A DNA stretch of 64,000 nucleotides. Source: Actinomycetota bacterium (GTDB lineage Bacteria; Actinomycetota; UBA4738; JACQTL01). A program made the position numbers and the translations under genes. The stretch's first letter is position 1. Each line of letters starts with the position of its first letter. Below are positions 3,276 through 19,074 of this stretch, in pieces. A model generated the notes under the pieces. That model ran no database searches, was not told the origin of the DNA, and was given only the letters and a program-made list of their open reading frames with translations. The stretch spans positions 5,126-69,125 of the forward strand of contig JBHELK010000075.1 in assembly GCA_046263085.1 (NCBI GenBank), in the 5' to 3' direction.

Positions 3276-3360
3276 GCCCGGGTGGCGAAATCCGGCAACC
3301 GCGATGGTTTCAAAAACCATTGGGCGCAAGCCCTTGTGGGTTCGAATCCCACCCCGGGCA
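3276..3360 (+). tRNA. tRNA-Leu(CAA)
   Basis: Acceptor stem GCCCGGG/CCCGGGC plus discriminator A; anticodon arm ATGGT-TTCAAAA-ACCAT; long variable arm GGGCGCAAGCCC; T arm GTGGG-TTCGAAT-CCCAC; CCA not fully encoded (CCG); TAGACT -10 box at 3263-3268. Confidence 0.95.
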
Positions 3361-15521: not shown

Positions 15522-16595
15522 ATGGTGACCGAACAGGCGGTCCCCCCGAAGCGGGGCTGGTCGTGGATCCGACAGGAGAGCACGCCACTGGCCGCGGCGG
15601 TCGTGATCCTGGGAGCGATCGCGGTCGCGCTGGTGATCGGCGGCACCATCGGCGTCCTGGCCGCACACGGTCTCATCCCGTATCAGGACGTCGTCCGTGG
15701 GCTGACGTCGGTGCAGCTTCGTGGCGTTGAGCTCACCGGGATCGGCCTGGGGATCGTGGCGGCCGTCCTCGGATGGGGTTCCTACCGGCGGATGCCCACG
15801 AAGGTCTCCCGCGAGGAGGCCATCGCCGGGGCGGTCCTCGGCGTGCAGGCGTCCGTGCTCGCCGTGATCCTCCTCGGGTTCAGCTTCGGCAATGTCGAGA
15901 CGTTCGCGAAGAACGTGGCCGATTTCGGACCGGTTCGCGACCAGATCGGCGCCTTCGTGAAGGGTGCTCGGAACACGGTGGTTCTCGCTGTGGCGGGGGA
16001 GTTCTTCGGCATCCTGATCGGCCTGGGCCTCGCTGTGTTCGCCGTGTCGAGCCGGGCGGTGGTCCGGGCGCCGGCTCGGGCCTACATCAATTTCTTCCGG
16101 GGGACGCCGCTCGTGTGGCAGCTCCTGTTCACGTCCGTTGTTCTCCCTCTCGGCTTCAACCTGCACATCCAGACGTACTACGTCGCGATCATCGTCCTCA
16201 GCGTCAACACGGGGGCCTACGCGGCGGAGGTCTTCCGGGCCGGCATCCAGTCCATCGAGCGAGGCCAGCTGGAGGCCGCCAGGAGTCTGGGGATGTCGTA
16301 CTTCCAGGCATTGCGCTACGCCATCGTGCCCCAGGCCGTTCGCCGGGTGATCCCCCCGCTGATGAACGAGTTCGTCATCCTGATCAAGGACACGTCGCTC
16401 GTCATCGTCCTCGGGCTGAGCGAGAGCCAGTACGAGCTCATGTCCGTGGGAAAGAACGGCTTCGGGAACACGTTCAACGCCACGTTCTTCGTGGCGACGG
16501 CCATCGGCTATCTGGCGGTGAGCCTCCCGGCCATCCGGCTGGTCAATATCCTCGAGCGTCGGCTCCGGAGCGGGCTGGTGGGGGTCACGGCCTAG
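15522..16595 (+). CDS. Polar amino acid ABC transporter permease
   Basis: [31 protein letters not shown] and LIKDTSL. Confidence 0.92.
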
Positions 16596-17371
16596 TGAGC
16601 AGCACCTACAGCAAGGAGCCGGGAGCGCTCGGGCCCTCCGACCGGGCCCTGGTTCGCCTCCACGGCATCCACAAGTGGTTCGGGTCGAACCACGTCCTTC
16701 GGGGGATCGATTTCGAGCTCGACCAGGGAGACGTGCTCGTGGTCATCGGGCCGTCGGGCTCCGGCAAGTCGACGCTCCTGCGGTGCGTGAACCTGCTGGA
16801 GGAGCCGACCGAGGGGCAGGTGTGGTTCGAGGGGAATGAGATCACCGACGTGCGGACGGATCTCAACGCGGTCCGCACCAGGATGGGGATCGTGTTCCAG
16901 GCCTACAACCTGTTCCCCCACAAGACCGCACTGCAGAACATCACCCTGGCCCTCCAGAAGGTGCTGGGCCTCAAGCCGGAGGAAGCGAGGGAGCGGGCCA
17001 CCCAGGAGCTGCGACACGTCGGGCTGGAGGAGAAGGGGGACTCCTACCCGTCGCAGCTCTCAGGGGGCCAGCAGCAGCGGGTGGCGATCGCGAGGGCCCT
17101 GGCCATGCGGCCCAAGCTCATGCTCTTCGACGAGGTGACCTCGGCCCTCGACCCGGAATTGGTGGGGGAGGTGCTCGACGTCATGAAGGGACTGGCGGAG
17201 GAGGGGATGACGATGATGGTCGTCACCCACGAGATGGGATTCGCGCGGGAGGTCGGGAGCCGGATGATCTTCATGGACGAGGGTCTCGTCATGGAGGAGG
17301 GTGATCCCCGCCAGATGTTCCGCGACCCACAGCACGAGCGAACCAAACAGTTCCTGTCGAAGGTGCTGTAA
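16595..17371 (+). CDS. Polar amino acid ABC transporter ATP-binding protein (GlnQ-like)
   Basis: [37 protein letters not shown] and VTHEMGFA; exact start uncertain. Confidence 0.92.
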
Positions 17372-17603
17372 GTAATAGACGGGCCGAGGGACCTTTGGAG
17401 CCGCTCACGCCTTCCCCAAACGTGAGCGTTGTCTACTCGGTCCCTCGACCCGCCAAACAGATGGTCCCAAGCAACCCGGTCGATCGGCGGGCGGCGGTTC
17501 AGTTGACCGGGTTCGGTGTCGTCGTCGGAAGCTTGCGCCTCCTTCATCGACTCCTTGCCCGGGGCCTCACCGAGCCTTCCGATCCCTGCGGCCGCTTGGG
17601 ACC
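17372..17603 (-). ncRNA. Putative ~230-nt structured non-coding RNA of unknown family
   Basis: Own promoter (17611-17640); the 5' GGUCCCAAGC pairs perfectly with GCUUGGGACC (10 bp) and encloses two hairpins; second domain is a 16-bp stem plus 8-bp inner stem; lies between convergent genes. Confidence 0.65.
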
Positions 17604-17610
17604 GGGGCGA

Positions 17611-17640
17611 AGAGTAGCGAGGGCCTCTGTTGCCTGTCAA
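17611..17640 (-). promoter_or_regulatory. Sigma70/SigA-type promoter TTGACA-N18-TACTCT
   Basis: Minus strand: TTGACA (17640-17635), TACTCT (17616-17611); the first paired G of the structured RNA follows 7 nt after the -10 box. Confidence 0.7.
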
Positions 17641-17759
17641 CGAGCTCGAATGCGATGCGCCGCAAGCGGTTCCAAGCGTCACCGCAGGTAGGACCAAGCG
17701 TCCGGTTCGTGGAGAAAGAGTGACAAGACGACACGTGGCGTGCGAACGCTGCGATGCGA

Positions 17760-18215
17760 TCACGGAGCCGGCGGCAGCGCCTCGCGGATGGCGAGTGTCA
17801 GCCGCGACGCGGCGATGAGCCGGCCGCCGTCGTCGGTGACGCGCATGTCCCACACCGCCGTGGTACGCCCGACGTGCAACGGGACGCCAGTCGCCGTGAC
17901 GGATCCTGTCGTCACCGCGCGGAGGTGGTTGATGTTGAGCTCGATGCCGGTGACGCGCTTCTCGGCGCCGACGCGGACCGCCGTCCCCACCGACGCCACC
18001 GTCTCGCACAGCGCGGCGGTCGCGCCGCCGTGCAGGATCCCGTAGGGCTGCACGTTGCCCGCAACGGGCATCCGGGCCACCACTCGGTCCGCGGCGATCT
18101 CCAGCCACTCCATCCCGAGTCGCTCGGCGAGCCCGGCGCGCATGTGCTCGTTGGCGAGTCCGGCCGCGGCGGTCGGGGAGAGCCCTTCGAAGGAGGTCGG
18201 TTCCGTGGCTGCCAT
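17760..18215 (-). CDS. PaaI-family hotdog thioesterase
   Basis: NVQPYGILHGGATAALCET, GIELNINHLRAV and GRTTAVW. Confidence 0.92.
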   Translation of the reverse strand: MAATEPTSFEGLSPTAAAGLANEHMRAGLAERLGMEWLEIAADRVVARMPVAGNVQPYGILHGGATAALCETVASVGTAVRVGAEKRVTGIELNINHLRAVTTGSVTATGVPLHVGRTTAVWDMRVTDDGGRLIAASRLTLAIREALPPAP

Positions 18216-18252
18216 GCCTCGGAAAGCCTACCGGCGAGCGCCTGCCGGGGCC

Positions 18253-19074
18253 CTACAGGCCGGCGCCGGCCAGGACCAGCTCGGTGGTGAACCCCACGAT
18301 GAACCCCGCCGCCACGCCCCACAGGGTGGCGTCCCAGGAGAGGCGCCGGCCGGCGTTGAACAGCTCGCCGACCACGTACAAGATGGCGCCGGCGGCCAGG
18401 GCCAGGAACCCCACGAAGACGTACTCGGAGCTGACCGAGGTCCCCAGGAGCGTGCCGAGGAACGTGGGACCGCCGCCGATCAGCCCGGCGGCGATGAGCC
18501 ACCGCCACGAGGCGCGGACGTTGGCCGCCACGAGCGGTCCGGCGATGCCGAAGCCCTCGGTGGCGTTGTGCAACCCGAACCCGATCACGAGCAGCAGCGC
18601 GAGTGAGATCTGATCGGTGTTCGCAGCCTGTCCGATGGCGAGCCCCTCGGAGAAGTTGTGCAGCCCGATGCCCGTGGCGATCGCCATCCCGAGGTTGAGG
18701 GCCTCGTGCCGGGGATGGACCTCCGCCGCCTCGGCCACGGCCATCGCCCCTGGACCGATGCCCGCGGGGATGGACCTCCGCCGCCACATGCGGCTCACGT
18801 ACAGGAGCCCCAGCAGCCCCGCGCCGATCCCCCCCGCGAGCAACGGCCCCATGCCGGCGACCGTTCCCCACCGGCCGTCCACCACGGCCTCCTCGAGGGG
18901 CTCGAAGGCGTGCTCGAACACCTCAACCAGGAGGAACAGCAGGACGCCCGCGGAAACCCCGTTCAGGAAGGTCCGTACCCAGCGCCCGCCGCCGCGCATC
19001 CGCGCCATCGGCAGTCCGAGGAAGATGGTGAAGCCCGCGACGGCGCCGAGGAGGACGGTTTCCCAGGTTGTCAT
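18253..19074 (-). CDS. ZIP (ZupT-like) family divalent metal transporter
   Basis: IGLHNFSEGLAIG and GLHNATEGFGI motifs, multiple TM helices. Confidence 0.9.
   Translation of the reverse strand: MTTWETVLLGAVAGFTIFLGLPMARMRGGGRWVRTFLNGVSAGVLLFLLVEVFEHAFEPLEEAVVDGRWGTVAGMGPLLAGGIGAGLLGLLYVSRMWRRRSIPAGIGPGAMAVAEAAEVHPRHEALNLGMAIATGIGLHNFSEGLAIGQAANTDQISLALLLVIGFGLHNATEGFGIAGPLVAANVRASWRWLIAAGLIGGGPTFLGTLLGTSVSSEYVFVGFLALAAGAILYVVGELFNAGRRLSWDATLWGVAAGFIVGFTTELVLAGAGL

What the first reader, a model, noticed from the sequence alone, without database searches (positions are those of the whole stretch)
17372..17640. Unannotated ~230-nt structured ncRNA gene with its own strong promoter, between two convergent genes
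Seen: a 388-bp gap between convergent genes, where neither gene needs a promoter. On the minus strand there is TTGACA-N18-TACTCT. Seven nt after the -10 box, GGUCCCAAGC (17603-17594) pairs perfectly with GCUUGGGACC (17472-17463). This closes a three-way junction with arm UCGGAAG/CUUCCGA (17582-17576/17531-17525) and arm AACCCGGUC/GACCGGGUU (17513-17505/17481-17473). A second domain follows: a 16-bp stem GGCGGGUCGAGGGACC/GGUCCCUCGGCCCGUC, whose two imperfect pairs are G-U only on the minus strand, with an internal loop and inner stem CGCUCACG/CGUGAGCG, ending in UAUUACUU. Two marginal pairs in the inner arms would instead be G-U on the plus strand, so orientation rests mainly on the promoter. 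I see no hallmarks of RNase P, tmRNA, SRP, T-box or tRNA. Inference: a stand-alone regulatory RNA, possibly an RNAP-binding Ms1/6S-like RNA or a new class.
Basis: partly seen in the sequence, partly recalled or inferred. Interest (0 to 1): 0.85.

Follow-up and report, generated by a model that had tools for sequence, protein, structure and literature searches.

The report
New conserved actinobacterial small RNA gene
This is a real, separately transcribed structured RNA gene of about 230 bases from a small-RNA family that is in no curated RNA library; the family sits near the DNA polymerase I gene in several groups of Actinomycetota, and its job is unknown but probably involves binding a protein.

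Summary
On the minus strand, window 17640-17611 carries TTGACA-N18-TACTCT. Seven nt later an RNA of about 232 nt (17603 to about 17372) begins. It folds far better than shuffles (z -8.05).

It is single copy in its genome. Homologues were found in 50 of 61 relatives by DNA search and in 148 of 151 genomes of the class by covariance model. All 30 homologues inspected keep the promoter.

The closing stem P1 and the 3' hairpin are conserved and covary.

The core of the family is the 3' hairpin of about 75 nt. Its internal loop is invariant (AGUAGA-N-AAC opposite CGG-NN-CCAAA) and its apical loop is G-rich. Shorter RNAs of 87-173 nt carry the same hairpin in other Actinomycetota, including Streptosporangium, Actinomadura and Spirillospora. 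They usually lie beside polA and often beside a hotdog thioesterase gene.

A second, shorter paralogue exists in this genome. There is no Rfam match, and the RNA is not Ms1, 6S, 6C or SRP RNA. Function is inferred only; protein binding is the most likely mechanism.

The parts
17683..17691 (-). Upstream conserved DNA element CTACCTGCG (an ACCTGC motif). It is a possible regulator site.
   Evidence: An ACCTG-type motif lies within 130 nt upstream in 19 of 30 homologues. In another family of the phylum (f14) it forms a palindrome GCAGGTG-N-CACCTGC. A regulatory function is inferred.
17655..17665 (-). Upstream element TTGC-N3-GCAA-like (TTGCGGCGCAT here), about 13 nt before the -35 box. It is a possible transcription-factor site.
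   Evidence: It is visible by eye in most of the 30 order homologues and in the f14 loci. I did not count it by script. The arms are conserved in sequence while the spacer varies, which points to a DNA site rather than an RNA helix (inference).
17611..17640 (-). Promoter: -35 TTGACA (17640-17635), an 18-nt spacer, and -10 TACTCT (17616-17611).
   Evidence: Read. TTGAC-N17/18-TAnnnT ends 6-8 nt before the RNA's first conserved base in 30 of 30 homologues. Promoters of the same type precede the hairpin in other lineages. That TAnnnT is the actinobacterial -10 consensus is recalled. The E. coli-type scan did not call this promoter.
17372..17603 (-). The whole predicted RNA (RNA-1, about 232 nt). 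The 5' end near 17603-17605 and the 3' end near 17370-17375 are predicted, not mapped.
   Evidence: Fold z -8.05. Single copy. Homologues in 50 of 61 relatives. Homologue lengths from the conserved 5' motif to about 11 nt past the hairpin are 221-300 nt.
17591..17603 (-). P1, 5' strand (GGUCCCAAGCGGC).
   Evidence: Pairs with 17475-17463. 99.5% of 390 cells are paired. A-U changes to G-C at one pair (16 AU, 12 GC, 2 GU) and U-A/U-G/C-G alternate at another. G-U occurs in 30 of 30 at one pair.
17476..17590 (-). Variable interior of the 5' domain, predicted to be an irregular rod. It contains a GNRA-capped hairpin GGAGGC-GCAA-GCUUCC at 17542-17527.
   Evidence: 5' domain length is 123-202 nt across 30 homologues. 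A GNRA hairpin with a stem of at least 4 bp occurs in 19 of 30. A long-range helix P2 is only weakly supported (mean z -1.05; 7 of 30 with z < -2).
17463..17475 (-). P1, 3' strand (GUUGCUUGGGACC).
17455..17462 (-). Linker between the 5' domain and the 3' hairpin (AUCUGUUU).
   Evidence: U-rich and variable in homologues.
17378..17454 (-). Core 3' hairpin module.
- Basal 16-bp stem: 17454-17439 with 17393-17378.
- Internal loop: GAGUAGACAA (17438-17429) opposite GCUCCAAA (17401-17394).
- Inner 9-bp stem: 17428-17420 with 17410-17402.
- Apical loop: UUGGGGAAG (17419-17411).
   Evidence: Model R1 finds it in 148 of 151 genomes of the class and 35 of 151 of the phylum sample. In 65 of 65 hairpins the letters AGUAGA, AAC, CGG and CCAA never change. 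GGGGAAG is present in 51-53 of 65.
17370..17377 (-). Tail UAUUACUU after the hairpin. This is the probable intrinsic termination point, and it overlaps the stop codon of the convergent ABC gene by 2 nt.
   Evidence: Read. Across 65 hairpins, a mean of 3.3 of the 8 bases after the stem are U. Some lineages have U5-U6. The terminator scan did not call it.
17760..18215 (-). Upstream neighbour: a hotdog-fold (4HBT) thioesterase of 151 aa.
   Evidence: Pfam 4HBT at 3.7e-18. NCBIfam TIGR00369 at 105 bits. The match is MenI/EntH/PaaI-like but below those families' cut-offs. A similar gene lies in the flanks of 18 of 30 order loci (one only partial) and of 6 of 6 Streptosporangiales loci.
15773..17371 (+). 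Convergent downstream neighbour: the ATPase of an amino-acid ABC transporter. The ORF as listed is probably over-extended at its 5' end.
   Evidence: ABC_tran domain. GlnQ-like match over residues 294-531 only. Found in the flanks of 20 of 30 order loci.

Best explanation
The region is a genuine, independently transcribed small non-coding RNA gene on the minus strand (RNA-1, about 232 nt, 17603 to about 17372). It is driven by a housekeeping-type promoter with conserved upstream DNA elements. It ends at a long hairpin that also serves as its terminator.

It belongs to a small-RNA family that matches no Rfam 15 family and turned up in none of my four paper searches. The family's functional core is the 3' hairpin of about 75 nt:
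- two covarying helices frame an invariant asymmetric internal loop (AGUAGA-N-AAC opposite CGG-NN-CCAAA);
- in the polA-linked members, the apical loop is an invariant G-rich sequence (GGGGAAG).

In other Actinomycetota the RNA is little more than this hairpin (87-173 nt). In this order a rod-like 5' domain of 120-200 nt, closed by the 13-bp P1, has been added. A second, shorter paralogue (RNA-2) carries the same internal loop.

The most likely mechanism is inferred, not shown. The invariant internal loop is a sequence-specific three-dimensional docking site for a protein. The RNA would then act as the RNA part of a small ribonucleoprotein, or as a decoy that titrates that protein. The apical loop and the 5' domain would add lineage-specific contacts.

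My odds by sub-claim: a real sRNA gene of a new family, about 0.9; working through protein binding, about 0.45. The confidence value given for this explanation is that of the whole statement, mechanism included.
For: Gene and strand:
- The promoter is kept in 30 of 30 homologues and in other lineages.
- Fold z is -8.05 against -4.81 for the other strand.
- There are 161 G-U against 15 A-C cells in the paired columns of 65 hairpins.
- The RNA is single copy, and exactly two copies of the module exist in the genome.

Conservation:
- 50 of 61 relatives match by DNA search.
- 148 of 151 genomes of the class and 35 of 151 of the phylum sample match model R1.
- The pattern scan of genome contigs returned 119 or more records, including Streptosporangium, Actinomadura and Spirillospora.

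Structure:
- Hairpin: 97.7% paired, 21 of 25 pairs with changes on both sides, 0 of 500 shuffles as good. Slid controls score at most 0.146 against 0.679.
- P1: 99.5% paired.

For protein binding (all inference):
- Both strands of the internal loop are invariant in 65 of 65 hairpins while the flanking helices covary freely.
- RNA-2 keeps the internal loop but replaces the G-rich apical loop with a tetraloop, and has no conserved single-stranded stretch.
- The shortest family members are a single hairpin with a leader of about 10 nt, which leaves little free RNA for antisense pairing.
- The AGUA with flanking purines resembles a bulged-G (S-turn) motif, a common protein-recognition element. That resemblance is recalled, not tested.

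Other housekeeping RNAs are found elsewhere in the genome: SRP RNA, RNase P RNA and tmRNA.
Against: - No expression data: no RNA run was listed for this sequence, so the transcript ends are predictions.
- No partner protein is identified. Hfq was found in only 1 of 151 phylum genomes and in none that carry the RNA.
- P1 covariation is thin: 2 of 13 pairs change on both sides, and on two of the measures the shuffles often reach the observed value.
- An invariant internal loop could equally be a small-molecule pocket.
- The invariant G-rich apical loop could be an antisense seed.
- The consensus scans called no promoter or terminator.
- The alignment used for the pair counts was fitted to the model, which favours the structure. 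It also contained 2 reverse-strand rows.
- Related genomes are not independent observations.
Confidence: 0.45

Rival explanations
1. Trans-acting antisense sRNA. The invariant G-rich apical loop (GGGGAAGG) is a seed that pairs, kissing-loop style, with C/U-rich sites in mRNAs or in another RNA. The hairpin body only presents and stabilises the seed.
For: The apical loop GGGGAAG is kept in 51-53 of 65 hairpins across lineages. The phylum lacks Hfq (1 of 151), so loop-presented seeds are plausible. By recall, 6C RNA uses loop seeds in this phylum.
Against: RNA-2 lacks the loop yet keeps the internal loop. This model does not explain why the internal loop is invariant. The complement CCTTCCCC is not enriched in the genome: 265 sites found against about 242 expected. 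No 6C RNA was found in the genome as a possible partner. No target was identified.
Confidence: 0.2
2. Ligand-sensing RNA (an orphan aptamer or attenuator). The internal loop is a small-molecule pocket. Ligand binding would modulate termination at the hairpin, and so read-through into neighbouring genes such as the hotdog thioesterase.
For: An internal loop of about 18 near-invariant bases framed by covarying helices is typical of aptamers. In family f18 the order is promoter, hairpin, U-tract and then a 4HBT thioesterase gene on the same strand, in 3 of 5 loci tested. Linkage to a 4HBT gene recurs in three lineages in two different gene orders.
Against: In this window, and in 6 of 6 Streptosporangiales loci, the RNA lies downstream of the thioesterase and faces a convergent gene, so there is nothing downstream to regulate. 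The leader is too short for an alternative antiterminator structure. RNA-2 has a different context, between an amidohydrolase gene and lnt.
Confidence: 0.12
3. RNA polymerase-binding regulator analogous to 6S or Ms1. The rod-like 5' domain of this order's version would occupy RNAP.
For: The genome has no detectable 6S or Ms1. RNA-1 is 221-300 nt in this order, similar to Ms1 at about 300 nt (PMC11077062, passage read). It has a strong promoter and a rod-like 5' domain.
Against: No model match: Ms1 gives 10 bits against a cut-off of 162. The ends do not pair and there is no large bubble. The conserved core is only a hairpin, and it occurs in genera reported to have Ms1 (PMC9130861). The synteny differs. 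By recall, 6S and Ms1 are conserved in shape rather than in loop sequence.
Confidence: 0.1
4. Not an RNA gene. The element is only a bidirectional terminator hairpin shared by two convergent genes, plus a fortuitous promoter-like sequence.
For: The hairpin abuts the ABC gene's stop codon. It also folds on the plus strand, z -4.81. A U-rich tail follows it.
Against: The promoter is conserved at a fixed distance in 30 of 30 homologues. Loop sequences are invariant across the phylum. G-U asymmetry is 161 to 15. The distance to the convergent gene varies from about 35 to about 400 nt in homologues. The 5' domain of about 140 nt has a conserved P1.
Confidence: 0.03

Closest known systems
Ms1 RNA (Rfam RF02566), the RNAP-core-binding sRNA of Actinobacteria
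   Same: Same phylum, similar size to the long form here (221-300 nt against about 300 nt), structured, stand-alone gene with its own promoter.
   Different: No model match (10 bits against 162; none in the genome). Different neighbours: HAD hydrolase and oxidoreductase for Ms1 (PMC9130861), against polA, thioesterase and ABC here. The core hairpin is found in Streptosporangium, Actinomadura and Spirillospora, genera in which that paper reports Ms1. RNAP binding is untested.
6S RNA (Rfam RF00013)
   Same: Probably abundant, promoter-driven, largely double-stranded RNA. No 6S was detected in this genome.
   Different: No match. The 5' and 3' ends do not pair, there is no central bubble, and conservation is in loop sequence rather than overall shape.
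6C RNA (Rfam RF01066)
   Same: A small actinobacterial hairpin RNA with a conserved homopurine or homopyrimidine-rich apical loop and a strong SigA-type promoter (PMC5014011, abstract seen in the listing).
   Different: The loop here is G-rich, not C-rich, on the transcribed strand. There is no model match on either strand. There is one conserved hairpin with a large internal loop, rather than two C-loop hairpins (the latter recalled).
Small SRP (4.5S) RNA
   Same: As a working analogy: a hairpin RNA of about 100 nt whose conserved internal loops and apical loop dock a protein.
   Different: The true SRP RNA is elsewhere in the genome (76 bits). Model R1 does not match that locus.
raiA motif and other orphan structured ncRNAs of Actinobacteria (Weinberg et al. 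2017, PMC5737381)
   Same: A conserved structured RNA of unknown function with recurrent but not strictly cis-regulatory gene neighbours (passages read).
   Different: No Rfam match to raiA or to any other motif. The architecture and neighbours differ.

Membership tests
Ms1 RNA (RF02566) | Match to the family covariance model at or above 162 bits | tested here: not met
   10 bits, E 3.5 in one lax scan. Absent in a second scan. No match in the whole genome.
Ms1 RNA (RF02566) | Conserved neighbours: HAD hydrolase / phosphoserine phosphatase and oxidoreductase (PMC9130861) | tested here: not met
   The immediate neighbours are a 4HBT thioesterase and an ABC ATPase, with a ZIP transporter and polA further out. 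Only these genes were examined.
Ms1 RNA (RF02566) | Binds the RNA polymerase core | not testable with these tools
   Needs RIP or gradient experiments.
6S RNA (RF00013) | Match to the family model | tested here: not met
   No match in the genome or the region. The control rang in only 5 of 14 known genomes, so sensitivity is limited.
6S RNA (RF00013) | 5' and 3' ends form a closing stem around a large central bubble | tested here: not met
   The MFE has the 5' end pairing about 130 nt downstream, a separate 3' hairpin, and internal loops of about 5 nt or less per side.
6C RNA (RF01066) | Model match and C-rich hairpin loops | tested here: not met
   No match. The loop is G-rich on the strand fixed by 161 G-U against 15 A-C.
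Bacterial small SRP RNA (RF00169) | Model match | tested here: not met
   The genome's SRP RNA is on another contig at 76.2 bits. There is no SRP match in the region.
Dispersed repeat (REP/MITE) | Many dispersed copies in the genome | tested here: not met
   One full-length copy. The core motif occurs exactly twice in 2.95 Mb, both strands searched.
Plain intrinsic terminator | GC-rich hairpin followed by a U-tract at the end of a gene, with no other constraint | tested here: inconclusive
   The hairpin and a U-rich tail are present (mean 3.3 U of 8), and the hairpin probably does terminate the RNA. However, the invariant loops, the dedicated promoter and the 5' domain go beyond a plain terminator. 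The scan tool did not call it.
The family proposed here (polA-linked hairpin sRNA) | Own TTGAC/TTGCnn-N17-18-TAnnnT promoter, and a terminal hairpin with AGUAGA-N-AAC opposite CGG-NN-CCAAA | tested here: met
   Window sequence. R1 score 120.3 bits. Promoter in 30 of 30 homologues. Motif invariance in 65 of 65 hairpins.

The most novel reading that the evidence does not exclude
A previously unrecognised small RNA class, widespread but patchy in Actinomycetota, forms a ribonucleoprotein with a still-unknown protein. The docking site would be an invariant S-turn-like internal loop. The RNA has conserved transcriptional control (shared upstream DNA elements) and a functional tie to the polA / hotdog-thioesterase neighbourhood. 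In this order it has been duplicated and enlarged with a GNRA-capped rod domain, which could give it a second activity such as RNA polymerase binding in a lineage without detectable 6S or Ms1.
Probability: 0.4. Interest if true: 0.78.

Novelty: new variant of a known kind. Interest (0 to 1): 0.62.

Why it matters
Actinomycetota lack Hfq, and few of their conserved small RNAs are understood; 6C, Ms1 and the recently reported CoRP are the main examples. Here a hairpin RNA keeps about 18 loop bases unchanged, and keeps its promoter architecture, across several families and at least two classes of the phylum. Carriers include cultivable Streptosporangiales and very abundant uncultured soil lineages. 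That pattern points to a specific molecular partner that nobody has looked for.

The family gives a concrete, testable entry point (pull-down, RIP-seq, deletion in a cultured carrier) into RNA-based regulation in this phylum. It would also be a straightforward addition to RNA family libraries, improving annotation of thousands of genomes.

Tried and rejected
- Rfam at gathering and lax thresholds on the window, on the RNA-2 loci and on the Streptosporangiales loci gave only chance-level hits: miRNA models, HTT-AS1, F6 and Ms1 at 10 bits.
I built a model of the 3' domain only, so the 5' domain was never searched as a profile.
- The look-up of sequencing runs listed no RNA holder for window 16800-18400.
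- Hfq as a partner was rejected: 1 of 151 phylum genomes.
- 6C RNA as a pairing partner: none found in the genome.
- A target search for the loop complement showed no enrichment: 265 sites against about 242 expected.
- Four paper searches found no description of this RNA. They used Ms1/6S/Actinobacteria terms, loop motifs as text, polA/thioesterase/small RNA terms, and Streptosporangium/Actinomadura/sRNA terms. Supplements were not available and could hold candidate lists.
- A small-ORF reading was rejected by inspection only. An SD-AUG occurs in this genome's 5' domain, but the interior varies from 123 to 202 nt and is not alignable among homologues.
- The long ORF 17044..18108 on the minus strand that covers the region is taken as a high-GC artefact.
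Full report
**What is in the sequence**

Window 17372-17759 is the 388-bp gap between two convergent ORFs. One is the + strand ABC ATPase ORF, ending at 17371. The other is a - strand 151-aa hotdog (4HBT) thioesterase ORF, ending at 17760.

On the minus strand I read:
- TTGACA at 17640-17635, an 18-nt spacer, and TACTCT at 17616-17611;
- seven nt later, GGUCCCAAGC... starting at 17603;
- its perfect complement at 17472-17463;
- a long second hairpin at 17454-17378;
- the tail UAUUACUU at 17377-17370.

The 235-nt minus-strand stretch folds to -136.9 kcal/mol (z -8.05; 0 of 200 shuffles as good). The plus strand reaches -118.5 (z -4.81). The simple E. coli-type scans called neither a promoter nor a terminator. 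The -10 box matches TATAAT in only 3 of 6 positions, although it fits TAnnnT, which I recall as the actinobacterial consensus.

**It is a conserved, single-copy element**

The 361-nt stretch occurs once in its own genome (2.95 Mb, 127 contigs, 94.7% complete). That excludes a dispersed repeat. A DNA search of 61 genomes (G000 plus 60 relatives) found it in 50.

In all 30 fetched loci (G000's own, L001, plus 29 relatives) the conserved 5' motif GG(U/C)CCC(A/G)AGCGG is present. It is preceded by TTGAC-N17/18-TAnnnT ending 6-8 nt upstream (30 of 30). RNA lengths, from the 5' motif to about 11 nt past the hairpin, are 221-300 nt.

**Structure and strand**

Alignment A1 holds 30 sequences.
- The closing helix P1 is 13 bp (17603-17591 with 17475-17463).
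- 99.5% of 390 cells are paired.
- One pair alternates A-U (16), G-C (12) and G-U (2). Another alternates U-A (19), U-G (9) and C-G (2). One pair is G-U in 30 of 30.
- 8 of 13 pairs never vary, so covariation support for P1 is real but thin. On two of the five measures the shuffles often reach the observed value.

For the 3' hairpin I built covariance model R1 from 16 sequences. I aligned 67 matches with it. Of these, 65 are true hairpins and 2 are reverse-strand matches that slipped under the threshold.
- On all 67 rows (66 distinct), 97.7% of 1618 cells pair.
- 21 of 25 pairs show changes on both sides, in 358 cells.
- No shuffle out of 500 reaches any of the five measures.
- Sliding the partner by 1-3 columns drops the covariation score from 0.679 to at most 0.146.
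- This alignment was fitted to the model, which favours the structure.

After dropping the 2 reverse-strand rows, the paired columns hold 1396 Watson-Crick, 161 G-U, 15 A-C and 21 other cells. The G-U excess fixes the transcribed strand as the window's minus strand. That agrees with the promoter and the U-rich tail.

- The arm AACCCGGUC/GACCGGGUU is strong in this genome (-17.5 kcal/mol, z -4.7). It has no counterpart in the other 29 homologues (mean z -0.16; 1 of 30 below -2). It also uses bases that otherwise extend P1.
- The arm UCGGAAG/CUUCCGA shares its 3' strand with a local hairpin, GGAGGC-GCAA-GCUUCC (17542-17527). RNAfold prefers that hairpin. RNAalifold picks up three of its pairs with compensatory changes. 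A GNRA-capped hairpin with a stem of at least 4 bp occurs in the 5' domain of 19 of 30 homologues. I did not test this arm formally.
- Individual MFE folds of the 30 5' domains (123-202 nt) mostly give an irregular rod closed by P1, with extra branches in the longer versions.
- A long-range helix P2 just inside P1 is only weakly supported (mean z -1.05; 7 of 30 below -2).

The three-way junction is therefore not supported. The interior of the 5' domain is the variable part of the RNA.

**The core of the family is the 3' hairpin**

R1 matched 148 of 151 genomes drawn from the class, all of which were labelled as the same order. It matched 35 of 151 genomes drawn from the phylum at E <= 1e-5:
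- 11 of 11 genomes from this order (G000 included);
- 10 of 10 from family f14;
- 6 of 10 from f18;
- 4 of 5 from f31;
- 1 of 1 each from f11, f23 and f40;
- 1 of 10 from f9;
- none in the remaining families sampled.

Most were Actinomycetota MAGs. Named isolates of Streptosporangium (3), Spirillospora (2) and Actinomadura (1) were also hit, and R1 confirmed these at 43-62 bits.

Across the 65 hairpins:
- AGUAGA, AAC, CGG and CCAA never change (65 of 65);
- the following A is kept in 62 of 65;
- the apical GGGGAAG is present in 51-53 of 65;
- both helices vary freely.

Every lineage inspected has a promoter of the same type in front. It is TTGAC(A/C/G/T)-N16-18-TAnnnT in the 19 loci from other families of the phylum that I inspected. 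By eye it is TTGCnn-N18-TAnnnT in the Streptosporangiales. Predicted RNA lengths are:
- 87-90 nt in f18 and Streptosporangium;
- 115-129 nt in f14;
- 146 nt in f31;
- 173 nt in f40.

The 230-nt RNA of this window is therefore an order-specific enlargement of a hairpin sRNA of about 90 nt.

**A paralogue**

Some R1 matches lay at a second place in the genome. I fetched ten such loci, plus the one in this genome (G000 contig C90, 28169-28268, + strand, 41 bits). They show a second sRNA gene, RNA-2, of about 100-110 nt. It has its own TTGACA-N17-TAnnnT promoter, a small variable 5' hairpin, and the same basal stem and internal loop. The inner stem, however, is capped by a tetraloop.

In this genome RNA-2 lies between an Amidohydro_3 gene and an lnt-like gene. 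The motif AGTAGA-N-AAC occurs exactly twice in the genome, at RNA-1 and RNA-2. All 11 order genomes in the phylum sample had a second-place match. I inspected the sequence in two of those 11 (G000 and G020), and in nine further genomes from the class search.

**Neighbourhood**

In the window the gene order is polA (+, from 19186), then ZIP transporter (-), 4HBT thioesterase (-) and RNA-1 (-), facing the convergent ABC ATPase (+).

Within the 1.5-kb flanks of the 30 order loci (own locus L001 included), tblastn found:
- the ABC protein in 20;
- the thioesterase in 18 (one only partial);
- the ZIP protein in 10;
- polA in 8.

Outside the order, polA lies in the fetched flank of 15 of 25 loci. 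That includes 6 of 6 Streptosporangiales loci, where the order polA / thioesterase / RNA / convergent ABC is the same as here.

In f14, a small HATPase_c_2 gene (anti-sigma-kinase-like) sits between the RNA and polA in 5 of the 6 loci where I tested an ORF.

In f18, the RNA lies directly upstream of a 4HBT thioesterase gene on the same strand. This held in 3 of 5 loci tested. In the other two, the downstream ORF had no Pfam match.

The RNA and a hotdog thioesterase gene are thus linked in three lineages and in two different gene orders. That suggests more than inherited position, but I could not test a functional link.

Upstream of the -35 box two DNA elements recur:
- TTGC-N3-GCAA about 13 nt before the -35 box (17665-17655 here). 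I saw it by eye in most order loci and in f14 and did not count it.
- An ACCTGC element (17691-17683 here), present in 19 of 30 order loci. It is a full palindrome in f14.

Both suggest a shared regulator.

**What it is not**

- No Rfam 15 family reaches its threshold in the window apart from a tRNA at 3276-3360.
- Lax scans of the region, of the ten RNA-2 loci and of the six Streptosporangiales loci give only chance-level hits.
- The genome's SRP RNA, RNase P RNA and tmRNA are on other contigs.
- 6S, Ms1 and 6C models find nothing in the genome. The 6S control rang in only 5 of 14 known genomes, and the 6C control rang in 1 of 14 without reaching the family cut-off.
- Ms1 is reported next to HAD-hydrolase and oxidoreductase genes, and is reported in Streptosporangium, Actinomadura and Spirillospora (PMC9130861; passages read). 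The RNA described here is therefore found in genera that the paper lists as Ms1 carriers, and it has different neighbours.
- The RIP-seq study of RNAP-bound RNAs (PMC11077062; passages read) describes 6S, Ms1 and CoRP, none in this context.
- Four full-text searches found no description of this RNA.

**How it most likely works (inference)**

- The only features shared by all family members are the promoter, the long hairpin with a U-rich tail, and the invariant internal loop.
- The shortest members have a leader of about 10 nt and no other free RNA.
- RNA-2 lacks the G-rich apical loop.
- An internal loop is unchanged on both strands over lineages in which the flanking helices have turned over completely. 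That indicates a defined three-dimensional motif read by a partner.
- The AGUA with flanking purines opposite an A-rich strand recalls the bulged-G (S-turn) class of protein-binding motifs. This is recalled and was not tested.

I therefore favour a protein-docking RNA, either an RNP component or a decoy, at about 0.45. The hairpin would also act as the terminator and protect the 3' end. The rivals are:
- an antisense seed in the apical loop (0.2);
- a ligand pocket or attenuator tied to the thioesterase (0.12);
- RNAP binding through the order-specific rod domain (0.1);
- a mere terminator (0.03).

Hfq is not the partner (1 of 151 genomes). The loop's complement is not enriched in the genome (265 sites against about 242 expected). 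No RNA run was listed for this sequence, so expression and transcript ends remain predictions.

**Caveats**

- Related genomes are not independent observations.
- Several tallies and five alignment rows come from genomes marked unpublished. Rows L004 (G001), L010 (G040), L018 (G033), L020 (G034) and L026 (G052) are in A1, A2 and A4, and L004 and L018 are in A3. G001, G021, G031, G033, G034, G040, G049, G052, G069, G115, G122 and G148 enter the counts. Nothing from them should be published without the depositors' permission.
- The organism's class could not be named. Homologous contigs are titled only Actinomycetota or Actinomycetes bacterium, and the atlas search gave no finer taxon.

**Verdict**

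This is a real small RNA gene and a member of a conserved family that matches no Rfam 15 family and that my searches did not find described. It is not Ms1- or 6S-like by any feature I could test. Its mechanism is unknown, and protein binding is the best-supported guess.

Noticed in passing
G000 contig C90, 28169-28268 (+), outside the window; locus L225 about 2637-2775: A second small RNA gene (RNA-2, about 105 nt). It has its own TTGACA-N17-TAGCAT promoter and the same basal stem and internal loop, but a tetraloop instead of the G-rich loop. It lies between an Amidohydro_3 gene and an lnt-like gene. Second-place matches occur in 11 of 11 order genomes of the phylum sample.
   Followed up: partly
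window 17655-17665 and 17683-17691 (minus strand): Two conserved DNA elements lie upstream of the -35 box: TTGC-N3-GCAA-like and CTACCTGCG. They recur in front of the homologous RNA genes in other families. In family f14 the second is a full palindrome, GCAGGTG-N-CACCTGC. They are probably binding sites of an unknown regulator.
   Followed up: partly
loci L207, L208, L222 (family f18): Here the hairpin RNA lies directly upstream of a 4HBT thioesterase gene on the same strand. This is the reverse of the order in the window (thioesterase then RNA). The recurrence of this pairing in both gene orders hints at a functional tie.
   Followed up: partly
loci L205, L213, L217, L219, L220 (family f14): A small HATPase_c_2 gene (anti-sigma-factor-kinase-like, about 140 aa) sits between the RNA gene and polA, divergent from the RNA.
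   Followed up: no
window 15773-17371 (+): The 532-aa ORF matches GlnQ-type ABC ATPases only over residues 294-531, and it overlaps another + strand ORF (15522-16595). Its listed start is probably too far upstream.
   Followed up: no
window 17044-18108 (-): A 354-aa open frame runs across the whole RNA region and into the ABC gene's antisense strand. I take it as a high-GC artefact (genome GC 69.5%), not a gene.
   Followed up: no
window 3276-3360 (+): A tRNA gene, the only Rfam match in the window at gathering threshold.
   Followed up: no
window 17547-17556 (minus strand): An AAGGAG followed four bases later by AUG occurs inside the 5' domain of this genome's RNA. It is not conserved in the homologues I looked at, so a small ORF seems unlikely, but I did not test this formally.
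   Followed up: no
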